Assembly: GCF_003334385.1 (NCBI RefSeq)
Contig: NZ_QOWN01000074.1
Source: Escherichia coli
GTDB lineage: Bacteria; Pseudomonadota; Gammaproteobacteria; Enterobacterales; Enterobacteriaceae
Length of the DNA: 7,017 nt
Direction: 5' to 3' (one strand)
Position 1 is the stretch's first letter, and every line of letters begins with the position of its first letter. Below the pieces are notes generated by a model that worked only from the letters and a program-made list of their open reading frames with translations, was not told where the DNA came from and searched no databases. Below are positions 1,214 through 7,017 of this stretch, one piece after another. The translations under genes and the position numbers were made by a program.

Positions 1214-1582
1214 TTACTTTTTCGTTTCGGGCGTCGGATAAACAGCCAGATAAACGTAACCACCGCTACCGAGAGTGTCAGCTTTGCAGGTCAGACCTTT
1301 TGCATACAGCGTGACGGTATGCTGATGGCGGGGATTCAGTTCACCGCTGGTGAGCATGAGTTCCAGTTGTTTCATCAGCAGCGGAAAGGCCTGGTCCAGG
1401 TGGTACGCATCTGCATCGCTGAACAGGCCTCTGATACCGGCGCGGTCGGCAAGGTAATGCAGGCGGTTACCCTCCTGCACCAGACGGGCGCCGAAACAGG
1501 GCGTCACTGTGCAGGGTAGTCCCCACCAGGGATGGTCGTCATTGTCATCGGGATGCGTTGTCCCGGAAAGTGTGTCTGACAC
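1214..1582 (-). CDS. cbeA: CbeA-family antitoxin (YeeU/YafW/YfjZ paralog group), 122 aa, GTG start
   Basis: Within track ORF 1214..1690 (-). Sequence from [52 protein letters not shown]...[31 protein letters not shown] matches K-12 YeeU/CbeA as I recall it (K-12 begins MSDTLPGTT). The GTG at 1580-1582 aligns to the K-12 start and has a GAGGA Shine-Dalgarno about 7 nt upstream. The in-frame ATG at 1688-1690 (158-aa form) lacks a convincing RBS. An 89-bp spacer separates it from the toxin gene. Confidence 0.88.
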
Positions 1583-1744
1583 GATAAAATCCTCACAGAA
1601 AATCGGTGAATGATAGTTTAACGATGACGGGTCAGCCGGCGCGCAGACCGGCTTCGGTAAAGGTGTATTCGTTGATGAGCAGGACCTCATCCACAGCGGC
1701 GTCTGAGCTCAGCCAGTCGTACTCGTTTTCCGGGTGACGGAACA

Positions 1745-1966: not shown

Positions 1967-2028
1967 AGTGGGATACCTCTGAAGACAGAAGATAAAAGTG
2001 AAAACAGGTGTGATGTGGTTGTAACGGG

Positions 2029-2505
2029 TTAAAGCAGACCATGTTCGGCAAAGGAGAAAACCTGGCTGCCACCGATTATCAGATGGTCCGGCACCCGGAT
2101 ATCCACCAGGCCCAGTGCCTGTACCAGACGTTCCGTGATAAGGCGGTCTGCCTTGCTGGGTGTGACTTCACCGGACGGGTGATTGTGTGCCAGCACCACA
2201 GCAGCGGCATTGTGATACAGGGCGCGTTTAATCACTTCCCGGGGATGGACTTCCGTGCGGTTGATGGTGCCGGTGAAGAGGGTTTCACCGGCAATCAGCT
2301 GATTCTGGTTGTTCAGATACAGCACCCGGAACTCTTCACGCTCCAGTCCCGCCATGTTCAGAATCAGCCATTCCCGTGCCGCATGCGTGGAGGTGAAGGC
2401 CACGCCGGGTTCATGAAGATGGCGGTCCAGGGTTTTCAGGGCCCGCTGAATGAGGCTGCGCTCGCCGGGCGTCATGTTTCCGGGCAGAAAGGAAAGCTGT
2501 TGCAT
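2029..2505 (-). CDS. RadC-like JAB/JAMM-domain protein (YeeS/YkfG/YfjY family), 158 aa
   Basis: Track ORF 2029..2520 (-). Contains the JAMM metal-binding signature ...AAVVLAHNHPSGEVTPSKADRLIT... (H-x-H-P-S-G ... D), intact. Start chosen at the second ATG (2503-2505, MQQLSFLPG...) because GGAGA lies about 9 nt upstream and the resulting length matches K-12 paralogs. The first ATG (2518-2520) directly abuts the upstream stop and is an alternative. Confidence 0.88.
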   Translation of the reverse strand: MQQLSFLPGNMTPGERSLIQRALKTLDRHLHEPGVAFTSTHAAREWLILNMAGLEREEFRVLYLNNQNQLIAGETLFTGTINRTEVHPREVIKRALYHNAAAVVLAHNHPSGEVTPSKADRLITERLVQALGLVDIRVPDHLIIGGSQVFSFAEHGLL

Positions 2506-2520
2506 TGTACTTCTCTCCAT

Positions 2521-3006
2521 TCAGTCGATGATGCGCATAATGGCGCTGCATTCCGGATGCTGCAGGGCGTAATCCCGCAGCCGGTAATAATGGACCGTCA
2601 TGGCATAACACTCCGTACGACAGGCATGATGACTGTACGTCATCAGACAGGCAGCAATGCCGGCAGCTTCCGGACTCATTTCAGCGCGGTTACCGTTCAT
2701 GGCATTGAACAGTACCCATGTTTCGTCATCATCGTCATCCGGTTCGGGTGCCATAAATGCCCCGCCGTTGTTCAGGGTGTACAGATTCCAGATACCACCG
2801 CAGTAGTCTTCACACAGACGGTCCATCCAGCCGAAGACACGGGGCTCCAGGGTCACCCACTGTGGAATGAGGCCAAAGTGCTGCGGCCAGAAGCTGATGC
2901 GCTGTTCATCAGGGACTATGGTGGCAACCAACTGAGGCTGGTCATTCCCTGATGCAGCGGTTACGGAAACAGAAGATGTGGTGGAATTATGTGAAATGGT
3001 TTTCAT
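2521..3006 (-). CDS. Antirestriction protein, ArdB/KlcA-like (YfjX/YafX family), 161 aa
   Basis: Track ORF 2521..3006 (-), with AAGGAG Shine-Dalgarno 8 nt upstream of the ATG. Contains an acidic run PEPDDDDDETW and the motif FGWMDRLCEDYCGGIWNLYTLNNGGAFMAPE that I associate with this family. Sits immediately upstream of the radC-like gene, as antirestriction genes do in CP4-type islands. Family call is from memory and gene order. Confidence 0.75.
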   Translation of the reverse strand: MKTISHNSTTSSVSVTAASGNDQPQLVATIVPDEQRISFWPQHFGLIPQWVTLEPRVFGWMDRLCEDYCGGIWNLYTLNNGGAFMAPEPDDDDDETWVLFNAMNGNRAEMSPEAAGIAACLMTYSHHACRTECYAMTVHYYRLRDYALQHPECSAIMRIID

Positions 3007-3060
3007 GAAATGACTCCTTAAAGGACAAATAAATGCGTGGTTTTCAGGGTAATGGCTGAA

Positions 3061-3978: not shown

Positions 3979-4212
3979 TTATTGTCTGAGAAGACCGTCA
4001 CTGGCGAGCCGCGTATTAAGCACCTTTCCGGCATCGGGTTCAGAATTCCGGCAGCGCCAGCGTCGCTGACCTTCCGCGTTGCGGATAACCCGACGGAAAT
4101 GCATTCCCGGGTCATCCTGGATAAACACATTGCGGTAAGCGGTTATGACAGCAACCGCCTGCCCGTATGAGAAAGATCCTTCAGCCAGGACATACTCTGT
4201 GTAACCCGGCAT
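3979..4212 (-). CDS. DUF905-like small protein (YkfF-like), 77 aa
   Basis: Track ORF 3979..4212 (-). Motif [29 protein letters not shown] resembles the conserved core I recall for DUF905 proteins in K-12 cryptic prophages. AGGAG Shine-Dalgarno about 9 nt upstream of the ATG. Flanked by terminators on both sides. Confidence 0.72.
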
Positions 4213-4225
4213 ATCTGTTTTCTCC

Positions 4226-4266
4226 TGATAAATAAAAAGCCTCTGCCACGCGTTGTGACAGAGGCT
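4226..4266 (-). terminator. Rho-independent terminator downstream of the signal-peptide protein gene
   Basis: On the minus strand: AGCCTCTG-t-CAC-aacgc-GTG-g-CAGAGGCT (plus-strand 4238-4266), a GC-rich stem of 8+3 bp, followed by TTTTATTTATCA (plus-strand 4226-4237). Located 25 nt after the stop of the 4291..4746 gene and 25 nt before the DUF905 start. Confidence 0.65.
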
Positions 4267-4290
4267 GAAGCATGAAACTGACTTCAGGGA

Positions 4291-4746
4291 TCAGTTAACG
4301 TTTTTTCCGGAAACGGTAATCAGCAGTGGATGGTAGTCCTGGGGATTGAAAACCGATAACGGCAGACTGACACGATGGCCGTTACTTTCTTCAGTTGCTT
4401 TGATGATTTCGGTTGTGGCGACATTTTCCACGCACTCCGTTTCCAGAAATGCGTCTGTGGTTCGCGTGGCATTACTGTCACCAAAAGCTTCCGTTTCCAT
4501 TTTTCTGGTCACCAGCGTCTGACCATATTTGTCTTTGAGTTGCAGAGTGATGGTGAGGGGGCCAAATCCTTCATCGTTTCCGCCATTATCCAGCCGGAAC
4601 TGGTAAGCACAAATATTTCCCGGGAGCCATATCGTATCTGTATTGCGTATACTGATGTAACGTTGATCCTGTGCCCGGAGTGGGGCAGACCACGTTAACC
4701 CCAGAATGAAGGCGGTAATCATGCAGGTTTTGAACAGGTGAATCAT
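4291..4746 (-). CDS. Small secreted/periplasmic protein of unknown function, 151 aa, with predicted Sec signal peptide
   Basis: Track ORF 4291..4746 (-). N-terminus MIHLFKTCMITAFILGLTWSAPLRA/QDQ has a typical n-h-c signal peptide with an AxA-like cleavage site and no lipobox. Mature part has two Cys (possible disulfide). GAGAGG Shine-Dalgarno about 8 nt upstream of the ATG. Lies 75 bp downstream of the large membrane protein gene with no terminator between them. I recognise no family. Confidence 0.65.
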   Translation of the reverse strand: MIHLFKTCMITAFILGLTWSAPLRAQDQRYISIRNTDTIWLPGNICAYQFRLDNGGNDEGFGPLTITLQLKDKYGQTLVTRKMETEAFGDSNATRTTDAFLETECVENVATTEIIKATEESNGHRVSLPLSVFNPQDYHPLLITVSGKNVN

Positions 4747-4821
4747 GGTATTTACCTCTCTGAGTCATGACGATGACACTGACAAATCAGGTAATAAAGC
4801 GTAAAAGGCGCAGAATAGCCG

Positions 4822-7017
4822 TTATGCCGGTAACTCCGGGGGTAATGCTTCTTCCAGTCGGTTAACCATATTGCCGAGATGGGATGCATCATATTCCATG
4901 ACGGGGCGTTGCCTGATGATACTGACCACCAGTGGTTTGATTAACATATTGGTCGCGGCCCGTTGTTGTATACCGGCGGCGAAAATGATCTCCAGAGCAT
5001 TCTGATCGATAACACGGGCCAGATTCTCGTTCAGATTTTCAATCTCATGTCCGGTCAGCAGGAAACTGCCGGCAAGCCATGTCACCTGCTCCTGAATCAT
5101 TGCCAGAATTTTGACGCGATCTTCTTCAACCAGCGCTCCGGCAATTTTTCCTGATACAGCGGAGGCAATCATTCCCCCCAGAACACCGCCAACCACACGC
5201 CCTGTCAGTGCACCAAATGGTCCCAGTGGACTGAACAGTATTCCGCCCGCCACTGACCCGACAGCACCACCTGCCACACCGGAAGATGCCACGGCAAGAT
5301 TCCTGATGAACTGCGTACCGGAGATCCGTCCCCGCAACATTTTGATCATGTCAGGGCCGGTTGTGACAGCTACCAGTGCCAGAGATGTCACCAGCGTACC
5401 CTTCATTACTTTGTTCAGGGCACTGATATTTCCTGCACCGTTCCCCTTCTGAAGAGCCAGTCGGACAGTCGGGCTGGCAGTCGAAAAATCAATGTGCTTC
5501 AGCATACCCTGAACAACACTGAGCCGGTGGAGTTGCTGGGTTGTGACGTAGACAGCCAGTGTGCGGGTGAAGGTTTTTCCTGCCTGGACAGCAGCTGTCT
5601 GCAGGGCAGCATCGCGATCGCCGGTGCTGAGCCAGAAGACCGATGCCGTCAGGGCAAAACTGATCCCTCCGGCCGCCAGACTGACAACCGAACCCTCGGC
5701 AATATCATAAGTGACCGATTCGATGGTCCCGAACCGGGTGATATTACGGGCCTGAGTATAAGTCAGATGTCCCCGACGAATCAGCCGGGACGCTTCTGCG
5801 GGATCGGTTACACCGGGTACTTTACCTTCGCGGATCTTATTCCTCATGGTTTCAACAGCGCCGGCATACTGATCACGGGGGACTTCCAGTTGCATGGGGC
5901 CATTATTTCCCATGTAACGATACTGTCCGTTTTGTCCGTCGAATGCCGCACCGACGCTACGGGCTGCAGTTGAACAATATTTCGTCTGGATTTCTGTTCC
6001 GCTGACCAGTCTGTCTGCTCCATTTCTGGCATTATTATCACCGAGGATCCGTGCGTTTTTCAGACGGACTCTGTCGACAATATGGTTTCCCCGTTCAGCG
6101 GCAAACCCATGTCCCTGCCCTCCGGAAGCAAACATTTTCTCATTTGTACTCCAGGTTTCCGGCAGTTTCATGAGAATCAGACCATTCGCCGTTGCATCGG
6201 AAATAAAGCTGTTGTAAGGGCGTTCATAAATTTCCTGACACAGTGTTTCTGTTTCGCGACAAAGAGAGGAGCAGTACCATTCCGGATCCGGCTTATGATT
6301 TTCCGGGGCATGATGTACTTCTGTCAGCCCGCAGGAGGCACAGATACGAAGCTCATCCACGTGATGGAATGATACAAAACGGCGACCTTCTGAAAAGGGA
6401 TACCAGTCACCGCCGTCCAGGCAACGATCGAGAAAATCGTCATTCGCTTCCGGTGATAAATTCAGGCGGTTCCGGAAGAGCGTTTTCAGTTCATCAGGTG
6501 TGAATGACAGGTTCTCTTTCAACTGTTCGTTAAACCCTGCCATGTTTCTTTCATACCAGGCATTGTTCAGTAACCAGTTTCCGTCTGCCAGTTCAAATTC
6601 CCTCAGCTCTCCCCGGGAAATCCGTTGAGAAATGAGCGTCAGCCAGATGCGCTCCGTCAGTGAGTCAGGAAGGCTGTAATCGTTTTGCAAACTGGTCAGC
6701 CACGATTTACTGTTGAGCACCGGTTGTTCTTCCAGTGTCTGGCTGATGGCACAGGTCAGTTTTTTCAGCGCCTGGATCTGGCTGGCCGCCCATAGCAGCG
6801 TCACTAATGCAGCCAGCCAGTACAACAACCCGCCCCACCACATCAGTGACGGTGAAATATCGTACTGTAACGCGATCAATGGTGCGCATGCAGAACACGC
6901 CATAAGGAAAAAGGCAGTATAAAAACAGCAGTAATACCCGTTAATTTCCTTGCTGATATCTTCTGGTGTGATCCCGTTCTGCTGAATGTTTTTGATCTGC
7001 AGGGGAACAGCCAGCAG
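4822..7017 (-). CDS. Large membrane protein of unknown function, 5'-truncated at the window edge (>=731 codons visible)
   Basis: Track ORF 4822..6903 (-) of 693 aa; the same frame stays open from 6904 to 7017 by my manual translation (...LLAVPLQIKNIQQNGITPEDISKEINGYYCCFYTAFFL-MACSAC...), so the true start is outside the window. Predicted N-terminal hydrophobic helices (6772..6843 and upstream). Cys cluster C-x2-C...C-x3-C...C at about 6238..6342. Further hydrophobic segments and a glycine-zipper-rich stretch SGVAGGAVGSVAGGILFSPLGPFGALTGRVVGGVLGGMIASAVSGKIAG at about 5134..5301. Stop TAA at 4822-4824. Occupies the slot held by YeeR/YfjW-type membrane proteins or Ag43 in K-12 islands, but I cannot confirm homology to those. 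Confidence 0.7.
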   Translation of the reverse strand: MLAVPLQIKNIQQNGITPEDISKEINGYYCCFYTAFFLMACSACAPLIALQYDISPSLMWWGGLLYWLAALVTLLWAASQIQALKKLTCAISQTLEEQPVLNSKSWLTSLQNDYSLPDSLTERIWLTLISQRISRGELREFELADGNWLLNNAWYERNMAGFNEQLKENLSFTPDELKTLFRNRLNLSPEANDDFLDRCLDGGDWYPFSEGRRFVSFHHVDELRICASCGLTEVHHAPENHKPDPEWYCSSLCRETETLCQEIYERPYNSFISDATANGLILMKLPETWSTNEKMFASGGQGHGFAAERGNHIVDRVRLKNARILGDNNARNGADRLVSGTEIQTKYCSTAARSVGAAFDGQNGQYRYMGNNGPMQLEVPRDQYAGAVETMRNKIREGKVPGVTDPAEASRLIRRGHLTYTQARNITRFGTIESVTYDIAEGSVVSLAAGGISFALTASVFWLSTGDRDAALQTAAVQAGKTFTRTLAVYVTTQQLHRLSVVQGMLKHIDFSTASPTVRLALQKGNGAGNISALNKVMKGTLVTSLALVAVTTGPDMIKMLRGRISGTQFIRNLAVASSGVAGGAVGSVAGGILFSPLGPFGALTGRVVGGVLGGMIASAVSGKIAGALVEEDRVKILAMIQEQVTWLAGSFLLTGHEIENLNENLARVIDQNALEIIFAAGIQQRAATNMLIKPLVVSIIRQRPVMEYDASHLGNMVNRLEEALPPELPA

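What the first reader, a model, noticed from the sequence alone, without database searches (positions are those of the whole stretch)
4291..7017. Uncharacterised two-gene cargo unit: large multi-pass membrane protein plus small secreted protein
The large protein and the 151-aa signal-peptide protein are co-oriented, 75 bp apart with no terminator between them, and are followed by a strong terminator, so they look like one transcription unit. They sit in the variable cargo slot upstream of the conserved DUF905/DUF932/antirestriction/RadC/CbeA-CbtA module, where islands of this type carry accessory functions. The large protein combines N-terminal transmembrane helices, a cysteine cluster and a C-terminal glycine-zipper membrane region; a secreted partner is unusual for cytoplasmic defence systems. 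I cannot match either protein to a named family. Candidate roles: a membrane-acting abortive-infection or superinfection-exclusion pair, or a toxin/immunity-like pair.
Basis: partly seen in the sequence, partly recalled or inferred. Interest (0 to 1): 0.7.

Follow-up and report, generated by a model that had tools for sequence, protein, structure and literature searches.

The report
Known yeeR–irmA genes, Ag43 operon
The two genes are the already published yeeR and irmA, the last genes of the E. coli antigen-43 operon: IrmA is a solved, secreted cytokine-binding protein, the two are not a functional pair, and only the membrane protein YeeR still lacks a known function.

Summary
The sequence features are real, but both genes lie on the minus strand. 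The large ORF is cut by the window end: the true protein has 838 aa and its first 107 residues are missing.

The small protein is IrmA (Pfam PF18673, about 99% identical to PDB 5EK5). The large one is full-length YeeR (Pfam YeeR_C); K-12 YeeR is its first 507 residues. Together with agn43 just beyond the window, they form the published OxyR-repressed agn43-yeeR-irmA operon of CP4-44-type islands.

The pair is contiguous in about 1797 of 5426 complete E. coli genomes. It is not co-conserved beyond that:
- YeeR homologues in seven other genera lack irmA.
- IrmA homologues in other Enterobacterales islands lack yeeR.
- Published work shows IrmA secretion does not need YeeR.

The parts
4822..7017 (-). 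yeeR, 3' 87% of the gene (codons 108-838 plus stop). The true start lies 321 nt beyond the window end.
   Evidence: The frame is open to the window edge. The full 838-aa CDS is present in 99.9%-identical L001. It is 100% identical to K-12 YeeR over residues 1-507. Homologues carry PF27347 YeeR_C.
6769..7017 (-). YeeR residues 108-190: the last three of about six N-terminal transmembrane helices. The sequence is poorly conserved.
   Evidence: Hydropathy analysis and positive-inside loop charges, AF2 helices and alignment A1.
6349..6726 (-). YeeR residues 205-330: two alpha/beta units with a winged-helix-like order of secondary structure. This is a prediction only.
   Evidence: AF2 model secondary structure at pLDDT 85-90. 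No fold search was done on this part alone.
6238..6342 (-). It is an invariant C-x2-C-x19-C-x3-C zinc-ribbon-type motif (C333, C336, C356, C360, plus C367), 'EWYCSxxCxxTExxC'.
   Evidence: These columns are invariant in the 39-sequence alignment A1.
5704..6126 (-). YeeR residues 405-545: the most conserved domain. It has a predicted restriction-endonuclease-like (PD-(D/E)xK-type) alpha-beta-beta-beta-alpha-beta core. Signature residues are E415 (helix 1), D442 (start of strand 2), Q451-x-K453 (strand 3) and E485 (strand 4).
5128..5703 (-). YeeR residues 546-737: membrane module with TM helix 548-570, a conserved QQLHR helix and a glycine-zipper hairpin (683-737).
   Evidence: Hydropathy, alignment A1, a weak Pfam C19orf12 glycine-zipper hit and a weak PADLOC PDC-M09B hit over 576-731. 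AF2 confidence is low here.
4825..5127 (-). YeeR residues 738-838: C-terminal helical domain with conserved L761, E765, N797, P802 and R811.
   Evidence: Alignment A1 and AF2 helices.
4747..4821 (-). 75-bp yeeR-irmA spacer with the irmA ribosome-binding site (GAGAGG). In EAEC 042 the equivalent spacer holds an irmA promoter.
   Evidence: Sequence. 5' RACE and lacZ fusions in PMC9431211. My consensus scan found no sigma-70-like site here.
4291..4746 (-). irmA, encoding interleukin receptor mimic protein A (151 aa).
   Evidence: Pfam PF18673 at E 2.5e-37. PDB 5EK5 at E 2.8e-83 with one substitution over 128 residues. RefSeq annotates it as 'IrmA family protein'.
4672..4746 (-). IrmA signal peptide (about residues 1-25, MIHLFKTCMITAFILGLTWSAPLRA).
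   Evidence: Sequence. The crystallised mature protein starts at residue 25/26. IrmA is found in culture supernatant (PMC4807369).
4238..4266 (-). Intrinsic terminator ending the operon, 25 nt after the irmA stop codon.
   Evidence: 12-bp stem with 7 G-C pairs, a 5-nt loop and a TTTTTATTTAT tail.

Best explanation
The region holds the two distal genes of the known agn43(flu)-yeeR-irmA operon of a CP4-44-type E. coli genomic island.

Expression (published, not tested here): transcription starts at the phase-variable, OxyR/Dam-controlled agn43 promoter outside the window. It reads through yeeR and irmA and stops at the terminator at 4266-4238. Some strains also fire an irmA promoter in the 75-bp spacer.

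IrmA (shown by identity to the characterised protein): it is exported by its signal peptide and released as a domain-swapped FNIII-like dimer that binds IL-2, IL-4 and IL-10.

YeeR is an unrelated, independently mobile protein, not IrmA's partner (shown by comparative genomics).

Inferred architecture of YeeR: a polytopic inner-membrane protein whose large conserved part faces the cytoplasm. In order, it has six TM helices, two winged-helix-like units, a C4 zinc ribbon, a restriction-endonuclease-like domain with invariant E415/D442/Q451-x-K453, a glycine-zipper membrane module and a C-terminal helical domain.

Proposed function (inference, untested): YeeR is a self-contained conflict or defence protein. 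It would bind or cut invading nucleic acid at the inner face of the membrane, and its glycine-zipper module would oligomerise it or permeabilise the membrane.
For: Identity of the locus:
- IrmA matches Pfam and PDB 5EK5.
- YeeR is 100% identical to K-12 YeeR over residues 1-507.
- Gene order in L001 is GTPase-agn43-yeeR-irmA-DUF905-DUF932-antirestriction-RadC-DUF987-YeeU-CbtA.
- No terminator lies between agn43 and yeeR or between yeeR and irmA; one lies after irmA.
- Co-transcription and OxyR repression are published (PMC4807369; PMC8614746). The separate irmA promoter is published (PMC9431211).

Prevalence in 5426 complete E. coli genomes:
- irmA in 2161, full yeeR in 1801, the two contiguous in 1797.

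Not a pair:
- YeeR homologues occur without irmA.
- IrmA homologues occur without yeeR.
- IrmA secretion is independent of YeeR.

YeeR architecture:
- Alignment invariants, hydropathy and loop charges, and AF2 models.
- E415, D442, Q451 and K453 sit on helix 1, strand 2 and strand 3, as in that fold. They are 99-100% conserved across 129 diverse family members.

Defence association:
- Weak PDC-M09B hits.
- A 68%-identical YeeR lies directly after WYL-PDC-M09A-PDC-M09B and before dndBCDE.
- Core-module genes sit next to WYL or HTH regulators and a partner with a BnzA-like domain on a Lactococcus plasmid.
- Neighbours elsewhere include AbiGi, a TIR effector, HicAB, RES-Xre and integrases.
Against: Weak points of the fold assignment:
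- Foldseek against PDB has no significant hit (best E 0.34).
- No Pfam nuclease family matches even at E<=10.
- The third catalytic position is Gln, not Asp/Glu, so the domain could be non-catalytic.

Weak points of the defence link:
- Homology to PDC-M09B is marginal (hhalign probability 17%).
- PDC-M09 is itself only a candidate system.
- Some YeeR homologues sit in ordinary neighbourhoods, for example Dyella next to bcs/GGDEF and Pseudomonas among metabolic genes.
- I did no statistical enrichment test.
- No paper in the searched library links YeeR to phage.

Other limits:
- AF2 confidence in the glycine-zipper region is low.
- Topology is inferred from hydropathy only.
Confidence: 0.85

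Rival explanations
1. One reading: yeeR and irmA form a dedicated two-component module. It would be a membrane-acting abortive-infection or superinfection-exclusion pair, or a toxin-immunity pair, in which the secreted protein partners the membrane protein.
For: The genes are adjacent and co-oriented, 75 bp apart, with one terminator. They are contiguous in about 1797 E. coli genomes. They are co-transcribed in UPEC.
Against: The two genes are not co-conserved outside the E. coli element. IrmA is released and functional in a strain lacking YeeR and Ag43 (PMC4807369). IrmA is an extracellular cytokine-binding FNIII-like dimer (5EK5). YeeR's conserved domains are predicted to be cytoplasmic. irmA can be transcribed alone.
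Confidence: 0.04
2. YeeR is an accessory factor for Ag43: biogenesis, aggregation or biofilm. It would work with its upstream operon partner rather than in defence.
For: It shares an operon with agn43 and is co-induced in oxyR/gcvB mutants. One distant homologue lies beside a cellulose-synthesis/GGDEF cluster.
Against: YeeR homologues in eight other contexts have no autotransporter next to them. K-12 carries a YeeR truncated at residue 507, yet from general knowledge its Ag43 is functional. The conserved zinc ribbon and nuclease-like domain do not suggest an outer-membrane biogenesis role.
Confidence: 0.07
3. YeeR's conserved domain is a non-catalytic ligand or nucleic-acid sensor, or is not of the endonuclease fold at all. 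The protein would act purely as a regulated membrane-permeabilising or stress protein through its glycine zippers.
For: The signature has Gln in place of the usual acidic residue. Structural scores are modest and there is no sequence match to nuclease families. Every architecture keeps the hydrophobic/Gly-zipper module after the domain. Fusions to Sel1/TPR, FGE-sulfatase-like and zinc-ribbon repeats look like sensor additions.
Against: Conservation of E415, D442, R443, Q451, K453 and E485 is at 99-100% across phyla, which is typical of an active site. From memory and not checked here, D...QxK variants are catalytically active in some PD-(D/E)xK enzymes.
Confidence: 0.25

Closest known systems
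agn43(flu)-yeeR-irmA operon of UPEC CFT073/EC958 and EAEC 042 (Moriel 2016, PMC4807369; Bernabeu 2022, PMC9431211)
   Same: Same genes at about 99% identity. Same order, same spacer and terminator, and the same island backbone downstream.
   Different: Nothing substantive differs. The window simply lacks agn43 and the first 107 codons of yeeR. Which irmA promoter allele the spacer carries was not determined.
IrmA, PDB 5EK5 / Pfam PF18673
   Same: One substitution over the 128 crystallised residues (N vs D at residue 134), plus a signal peptide.
   Different: None detected.
K-12 YeeR (b2001, CP4-44)
   Same: 100% identical over residues 1-507.
   Different: The K-12 allele is a deletion remnant. 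It lacks the end of the nuclease-like domain, the whole glycine-zipper module and the C-terminal domain. The same deletion removed irmA through part of radC (PMC4807369).
PADLOC candidate defence system PDC-M09 (A + B)
   Same: PDC-M09B shares the HG..AE / D-x8-Q-x-K / (V/I)PKD signature in the same order and spacing, followed by a Gly-rich membrane region. A 68%-identical YeeR sits immediately downstream of PDC-M09A-B.
   Different: Similarity is marginal (hmmscan E 3e-6 and 1.5e-5; hhalign probability 17%). YeeR has an extra 400-residue N-terminal part (6 TM helices, winged-helix-like units, zinc ribbon). There is no PDC-M09A partner at the E. coli locus. PDC-M09 has no experimental validation that I could find.
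PD-(D/E)xK (restriction-endonuclease-like) nucleases such as Hjc, VRR-NUC, XisH and the CdiA-CT of Burkholderia pseudomallei
   Same: Predicted alpha-beta-beta-beta-alpha-beta core with Glu on helix 1, Asp at strand 2 and x-K on strand 3.
   Different: Gln replaces the Asp/Glu of the (D/E)xK triad. The domain is embedded in a polytopic membrane protein. There is no significant sequence or Foldseek match.

Membership tests
IrmA family (Pfam PF18673) | Match to the family profile | tested here: met
   E 2.5e-37 over residues 31-134, covering 107 of 109 model positions.
IrmA family (Pfam PF18673) | Sequence identity to the characterised, crystallised IrmA (5EK5) | tested here: met
   E 2.8e-83 with a single substitution over 128 residues.
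IrmA family (Pfam PF18673) | Sec signal peptide and extracellular release | tested here: met
   A hydrophobic N-terminus precedes the start of the crystallised mature chain. Release itself is published, not tested here.
IrmA family (Pfam PF18673) | Binding of IL-2, IL-4 and IL-10 | not testable with these tools
   Published for the near-identical protein (PMC4807369).
YeeR family (Pfam PF27347 YeeR_C; RefSeq 'YeeR family protein') | Identity to E. coli YeeR and family profile on homologues | tested here: met
   100% identity to b2001 over residues 1-507. PF27347 is precomputed on nearly all homologues. RefSeq uses the name 'YeeR family protein'. The Pfam copy available to profile_search lacks this model.
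agn43-yeeR-irmA operon | Gene order agn43, yeeR, irmA on one strand without internal terminators | tested here: met
   L001 annotation and terminator scans. agn43 itself lies outside the window.
agn43-yeeR-irmA operon | Single transcript from the OxyR/Dam-controlled agn43 promoter | not testable with these tools
   Published RT-PCR and RACE (PMC4807369). The strain-dependent separate irmA promoter is in PMC9431211.
PD-(D/E)xK nuclease superfamily (YeeR residues 405-545) | alpha-beta-beta-beta-alpha-beta core fold | tested here: inconclusive
PD-(D/E)xK nuclease superfamily (YeeR residues 405-545) | Catalytic Glu/Asp ... (D/E)xK residues on helix 1, strand 2 and strand 3 | tested here: inconclusive
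   E415, D442 and K453 are invariant and correctly placed, but the middle position is an invariant Gln.
PD-(D/E)xK nuclease superfamily (YeeR residues 405-545) | Metal-dependent nuclease activity | not testable with these tools
   This needs biochemistry.
PADLOC PDC-M09 candidate system | Confident match to the PDC-M09B profile | tested here: inconclusive
   E 3.4e-6 and 1.5e-5 on two partial stretches, against 5e-214 for a true PDC-M09B. hhalign probability is 17%.
PADLOC PDC-M09 candidate system | Adjacent PDC-M09A partner gene | tested here: not met
   The neighbours at the E. coli locus are agn43 and irmA. IrmA has no PADLOC hit.

The most novel reading that the evidence does not exclude
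Full-length YeeR is the founding, experimentally tractable member of a large unstudied family, present in more than 1000 protein clusters from Proteobacteria to Firmicutes. These would be single-protein, membrane-embedded defence factors. A cytoplasm-facing endonuclease-like domain with a D...QxK site would detect or cut incoming phage or plasmid nucleic acid at the membrane, and a glycine-zipper module would execute or scaffold the response. In E. coli it is expressed phase-variably with Ag43, which would tie immunity to the aggregated, biofilm-forming subpopulation.
Probability: 0.3. Interest if true: 0.65.

Novelty: already known. Interest (0 to 1): 0.3.

Why it matters
As a finding it is a rediscovery. 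The operon, its regulation and IrmA's structure and cytokine binding are published, so the 'uncharacterised pair' claim adds nothing.

The useful residue is YeeR. It is present full-length in about a third of complete E. coli genomes, and it is co-expressed with a major biofilm adhesin and a vaccine-candidate immunomodulator. The literature still calls it uncharacterised.

The domain dissection here gives concrete point mutants: C4 zinc ribbon, an invariant E/D/QxK endonuclease-like domain, and a glycine-zipper membrane module shared with a PADLOC candidate system. It also gives a concrete hypothesis, defence at the membrane, for a protein that is easy to test. The common K-12 allele is a truncation, so K-12 knockout data say little about the full protein.

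Tried and rejected
- NCBIfam: no hit for either protein.
- PHROGs: only a weak tape-measure match to the Gly-rich region.
- Sequence search of PDB with YeeR and with the domain profile: nothing meaningful.
- Foldseek of the domain against PDB: not significant.
- Pfam on 29 domain sequences: no nuclease family even at E<=0.1.
- Pfam on 40 diverse family members: only Sel1/TPR, zinc ribbons and glycine-zipper noise.
- PADLOC and NCBIfam on 10 diverse members: uninformative.
- Pairwise BLAST of YeeR against PDC-M09A and PDC-M09B: not significant.
- My guess from memory that K-12 YfjT is an IrmA-family protein: tested and rejected, no similarity.
- Rfam: no RNA family in the window.
- Plasmid and phage collections: YeeR is rare there, apart from mis-filed chromosomes, one Klebsiella plasmid and distant Firmicute copies.
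- Literature searches for PDC-M09 and for YeeR with phage: nothing relevant.
- A search to document QxK variants in TnsA: found nothing, so that point rests on memory.
- The genome-contig scan failed for lack of a slot and its cap was consumed. Neighbourhood evidence therefore rests on about a dozen loci, not on statistics.
Full report
**Observation**

Both ORFs of the finding lie on the minus strand.
- The small one is 4291-4746 (151 aa).
- The large one stops at 4822, and its frame stays open to the last base of the window.
- A megablast of 4200-7017 against complete E. coli genomes gave 99.9% identical matches.
- In one of them (strain 2003-3014, locus L001) the large CDS is 2517 nt / 838 aa, WP_001315618.1.
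- The window therefore lacks residues 1-107.
- The spacer is 75 bp (4747-4821).
- No minus-strand terminator lies between the genes. A 12-bp-stem terminator with a T-run sits at 4266..4238, 25 nt after the small gene.
- Rfam finds no RNA family in the window.

**Identity of the small protein**

It is IrmA.
- Pfam PF18673 matches at E 2.5e-37.
- The solved UPEC IrmA structure 5EK5 matches at E 2.8e-83, with one substitution over 128 residues.
- IrmA is a secreted, domain-swapped FNIII-like dimer that binds IL-2, IL-4 and IL-10. It is also a protective vaccine antigen (PMC4807369).

**Identity of the large protein**

It is full-length YeeR.
- It is 100% identical to K-12 YeeR (b2001) over residues 1-507.
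- The K-12 allele is a deletion remnant, and the same deletion removed irmA through part of radC.
- Homologues carry Pfam PF27347 'YeeR_C'. Recent RefSeq records call it 'YeeR family protein'.

**Context and expression**

- In L001 the order is GTPase, agn43, yeeR, irmA, DUF905, DUF932, antirestriction, RadC/JAB, DUF987, YeeU, CbtA, DUF5983, DUF957, DUF4942.
- The agn43-yeeR gap is 120 bp with no terminator.
- Moriel et al. showed by RT-PCR and 5' RACE that agn43-yeeR-irmA is one OxyR-repressed transcript in EC958 and CFT073. They also showed that IrmA reaches the supernatant in a strain lacking Ag43 and YeeR.
- flu and yeeR are co-induced in oxyR and gcvB mutants of K-12 (PMC8614746).
- Bernabeu et al. 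showed that in EAEC 042 irmA is transcribed from its own promoter in the yeeR-irmA spacer.
- My simple consensus scan found no sigma-70-like site in the spacer. I did not determine which allele this window carries.

**Is it a pair?**

Within E. coli the two genes are tightly linked. Of 5426 complete genomes:
- irmA is present (>=80% coverage) in 2161;
- full-length yeeR is present in 1801;
- the contiguous yeeR-irmA stretch is present in 1797.

Beyond this element the link dissolves.
- YeeR homologues at 37-68% identity have no irmA nearby. They come from Methylomonas, Pseudomonas, other Enterobacteriaceae, Shewanella, Cupriavidus, Dyella, Stenotrophomonas and Herbaspirillum.
- IrmA homologues are confined to Enterobacterales.
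- At about 60% identity, in the two island types with a full upstream context, they follow a WYL/YfjR-like regulator, a 189-aa protein and a YfjS-type lipoprotein. In all three they sit directly upstream of backbone genes (DUF905, DUF932, antirestriction, RadC), with no yeeR.
- irmA therefore travels with the island backbone, while agn43-yeeR is an insertion upstream of it.
- IrmA is extracellular, whereas YeeR's conserved parts are predicted to be cytoplasmic (see below).

Together with YeeR-independent secretion, this argues against a toxin-immunity or defence pair.

**What YeeR looks like**

A 39-sequence alignment (A1), hydropathy with loop charges and AlphaFold2 models (full length pLDDT 76; domain pLDDT 79) give this layout:
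- **Residues 1-190:** six poorly conserved TM helices. N-terminus inside is inferred from positive loops at 50-62 and after 188.
- **Residues 205-330:** two alpha/beta units with a winged-helix-like order of elements. This is a prediction only.
- **Residues 333-367:** From memory, this spacing resembles TRASH/MYM-type zinc fingers; I did not test that.
- **Residues 375-403:** a long helix.
- **Residues 405-545:** the most conserved domain.
- **Residues 546-737:** a TM helix, a conserved QQLHR helix and a glycine-zipper hairpin. Model confidence is low here.
- **Residues 738-838:** a helical C-terminal domain.

**The conserved domain**

A profile of residues 372-548 (alignment A2) was searched against 1.84 billion cluster representatives.
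- It found 1039 proteins at E<=1e-3 and 578 at E<=1e-30.
- These have many architectures and lengths, from Proteobacteria to Firmicutes.
- The domain is nearly always followed by hydrophobic, Gly-rich segments.
- Firmicute copies still score about E 1e-60.
- Across 129 diverse members, E415 is 99% conserved. D442, R443, Q451, K453, Y475, E485 and P487 are 100% conserved.

Structure comparison of the domain model:
- The list is dominated by PD-(D/E)xK nucleases: XisH-like 2okf, VRR-NUC, N.BspD6I, Hjc, a CdiA-CT toxin, NucS, FokI, influenza PA-N, HamA, Can2 and many type II enzymes.
- The predicted order helix(410-424), strand(429-431), strand(443-445), strand(448-452), helix, strand(483-486) is the canonical core.
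- E415 lies on the first helix, D442 at the start of the second strand and Q451-x-K453 on the third.

Against this assignment:
- Foldseek finds nothing significant (best E 0.34, though again EcoT38I and Hjc).
- No Pfam nuclease family matches.
- The usual acidic residue before the lysine is a glutamine.

I rate the fold assignment at about even odds or slightly better. Catalytic activity is open.

**Link to defence**

- PADLOC gives weak YeeR hits to two PDC-M09B models. They cover two collinear stretches: 434-497 and 576-731 in full-length numbering.
- In an enterobacterial island carrying a 68%-identical YeeR, the three genes immediately upstream are a WYL regulator, PDC-M09A (E 3e-120) and PDC-M09B (E 5e-214). 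dndBCDE follows downstream.
- PDC-M09B shows the same signature in the same order and nearly the same spacing: HGEIAE72, D109, Q118-x-K120, P152-K-D.
- Profile-profile comparison supports only a 55-column match, with probability 17% and E 0.0014. Homology is therefore tentative, and YeeR is not a PDC-M09 member.

Other contexts of the core module:
- A conjugative Lactococcus dairy plasmid carries WYL, then the core protein, then a 285-aa partner. The partner's C-terminal part matches the N-terminus of BnzA at E 1e-13.
- A Selenomonas plasmid carries HTH, core, a 284-aa gene and SEL1.
- An Oscillospirales phage carries it between the endolysin and a DNA invertase.
- Cupriavidus has it near AbiGi, DUF4062 and a PDC-M04A-like gene.
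- Methylomonas has it near HicAB, a TIR effector and IS66.
- Pseudomonas has it next to RES-Xre.
- Herbaspirillum has it inside an integrase-bearing element beside a DUF6361/PLD-like cluster.
- Dyella and Stenotrophomonas contexts are uninformative.

This is suggestive but not statistical. The planned genome-wide locus scan could not be run. No paper in the library links YeeR or PDC-M09 to phage defence.

**Mechanism I commit to**

[quoted passage not shown] It is expressed phase-variably under OxyR/Dam and terminates at 4266-4238. IrmA is exported as a cytokine-binding dimer, independently of YeeR.
- **Moderate to low confidence:** YeeR is a self-contained conflict protein anchored in the inner membrane. 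Its cytoplasmic zinc-ribbon and endonuclease-like domains would recognise or cut invading nucleic acid. Its glycine-zipper module would oligomerise it or permeabilise the membrane.
- **Rivals:** They are listed with the tests that would separate them.

**Verdict**

The interpretation as an uncharacterised pair is superseded by the published literature and by comparative genomics. The locus is already known. The only open and moderately interesting question is the function of full-length YeeR, for which this analysis supplies a testable domain model.

Noticed in passing
L005 4761-10523 (same in L006-L008): A four-gene run on one strand: WYL regulator, PDC-M09A, PDC-M09B and a 68%-identical YeeR, with gaps of 0-37 bp, followed by an arsC-like gene and dndBCDE. 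YeeR may be a third component or a paralogous add-on of the PDC-M09 candidate system in some islands.
   Followed up: partly
L018 4940-8780 (Lactococcus plasmid pNCDO184A); L020 5310-9732 (Selenomonas plasmid): Firmicute versions of the YeeR core module lack the N-terminal TM region and zinc ribbon. They sit between a WYL or HTH regulator and a ~285-aa gene. The Lactococcus partner matches the N-terminus of the Bunzi protein BnzA at E 1e-13.
   Followed up: partly
L017 5780-7755 (E. coli K-12 MG1655): K-12 yeeR ends three codons after residue 507 and overlaps yeeS by 4 nt. The widely used K-12 'YeeR' is a truncated fusion-junction product lacking the membrane module, so K-12 knockout phenotypes are not informative about the full protein.
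   Followed up: yes
Hits H14-H21 (for example NZ_CP075006.1, NZ_CP071711.1): In many EHEC/STEC genomes the yeeR-irmA stretch is split by IS600 or another IS3-family element. Sometimes two 'IrmA family protein' annotations result. This fits the published note that IS disruption of this cluster is frequent.
   Followed up: no
L009-L012 6552-7450; L015 6552-7453: IrmA homologues at about 60% identity overlap by 4 nt with an upstream YfjS_YafY lipoprotein gene in CP4-57-like islands that lack yeeR. K-12 YfjT, which occupies the same slot, shows no detectable similarity to IrmA.
   Followed up: yes
window 5440-5442 (YeeR residue 633): The single amino-acid difference between the window's YeeR and WP_001315618.1 is Asn versus Thr at residue 633. 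It falls in a variable loop of the membrane module.
   Followed up: no
window 1214-1690, minus strand: The mechanical ORF for the YeeU/CbeA antitoxin is 158 aa, but RefSeq annotates only a 122-aa CDS in the identical region of L001 (12015-12383). The longer upstream start is probably not used.
   Followed up: no
L019 5401-7353 (Oscillospirales phage IMGVR 15609780): A phage genome carries a 650-aa protein with the YeeR core domain (E 1e-59). It lies between the endolysin and a DNA invertase, a position typical of lysogeny-associated accessory genes.
   Followed up: no
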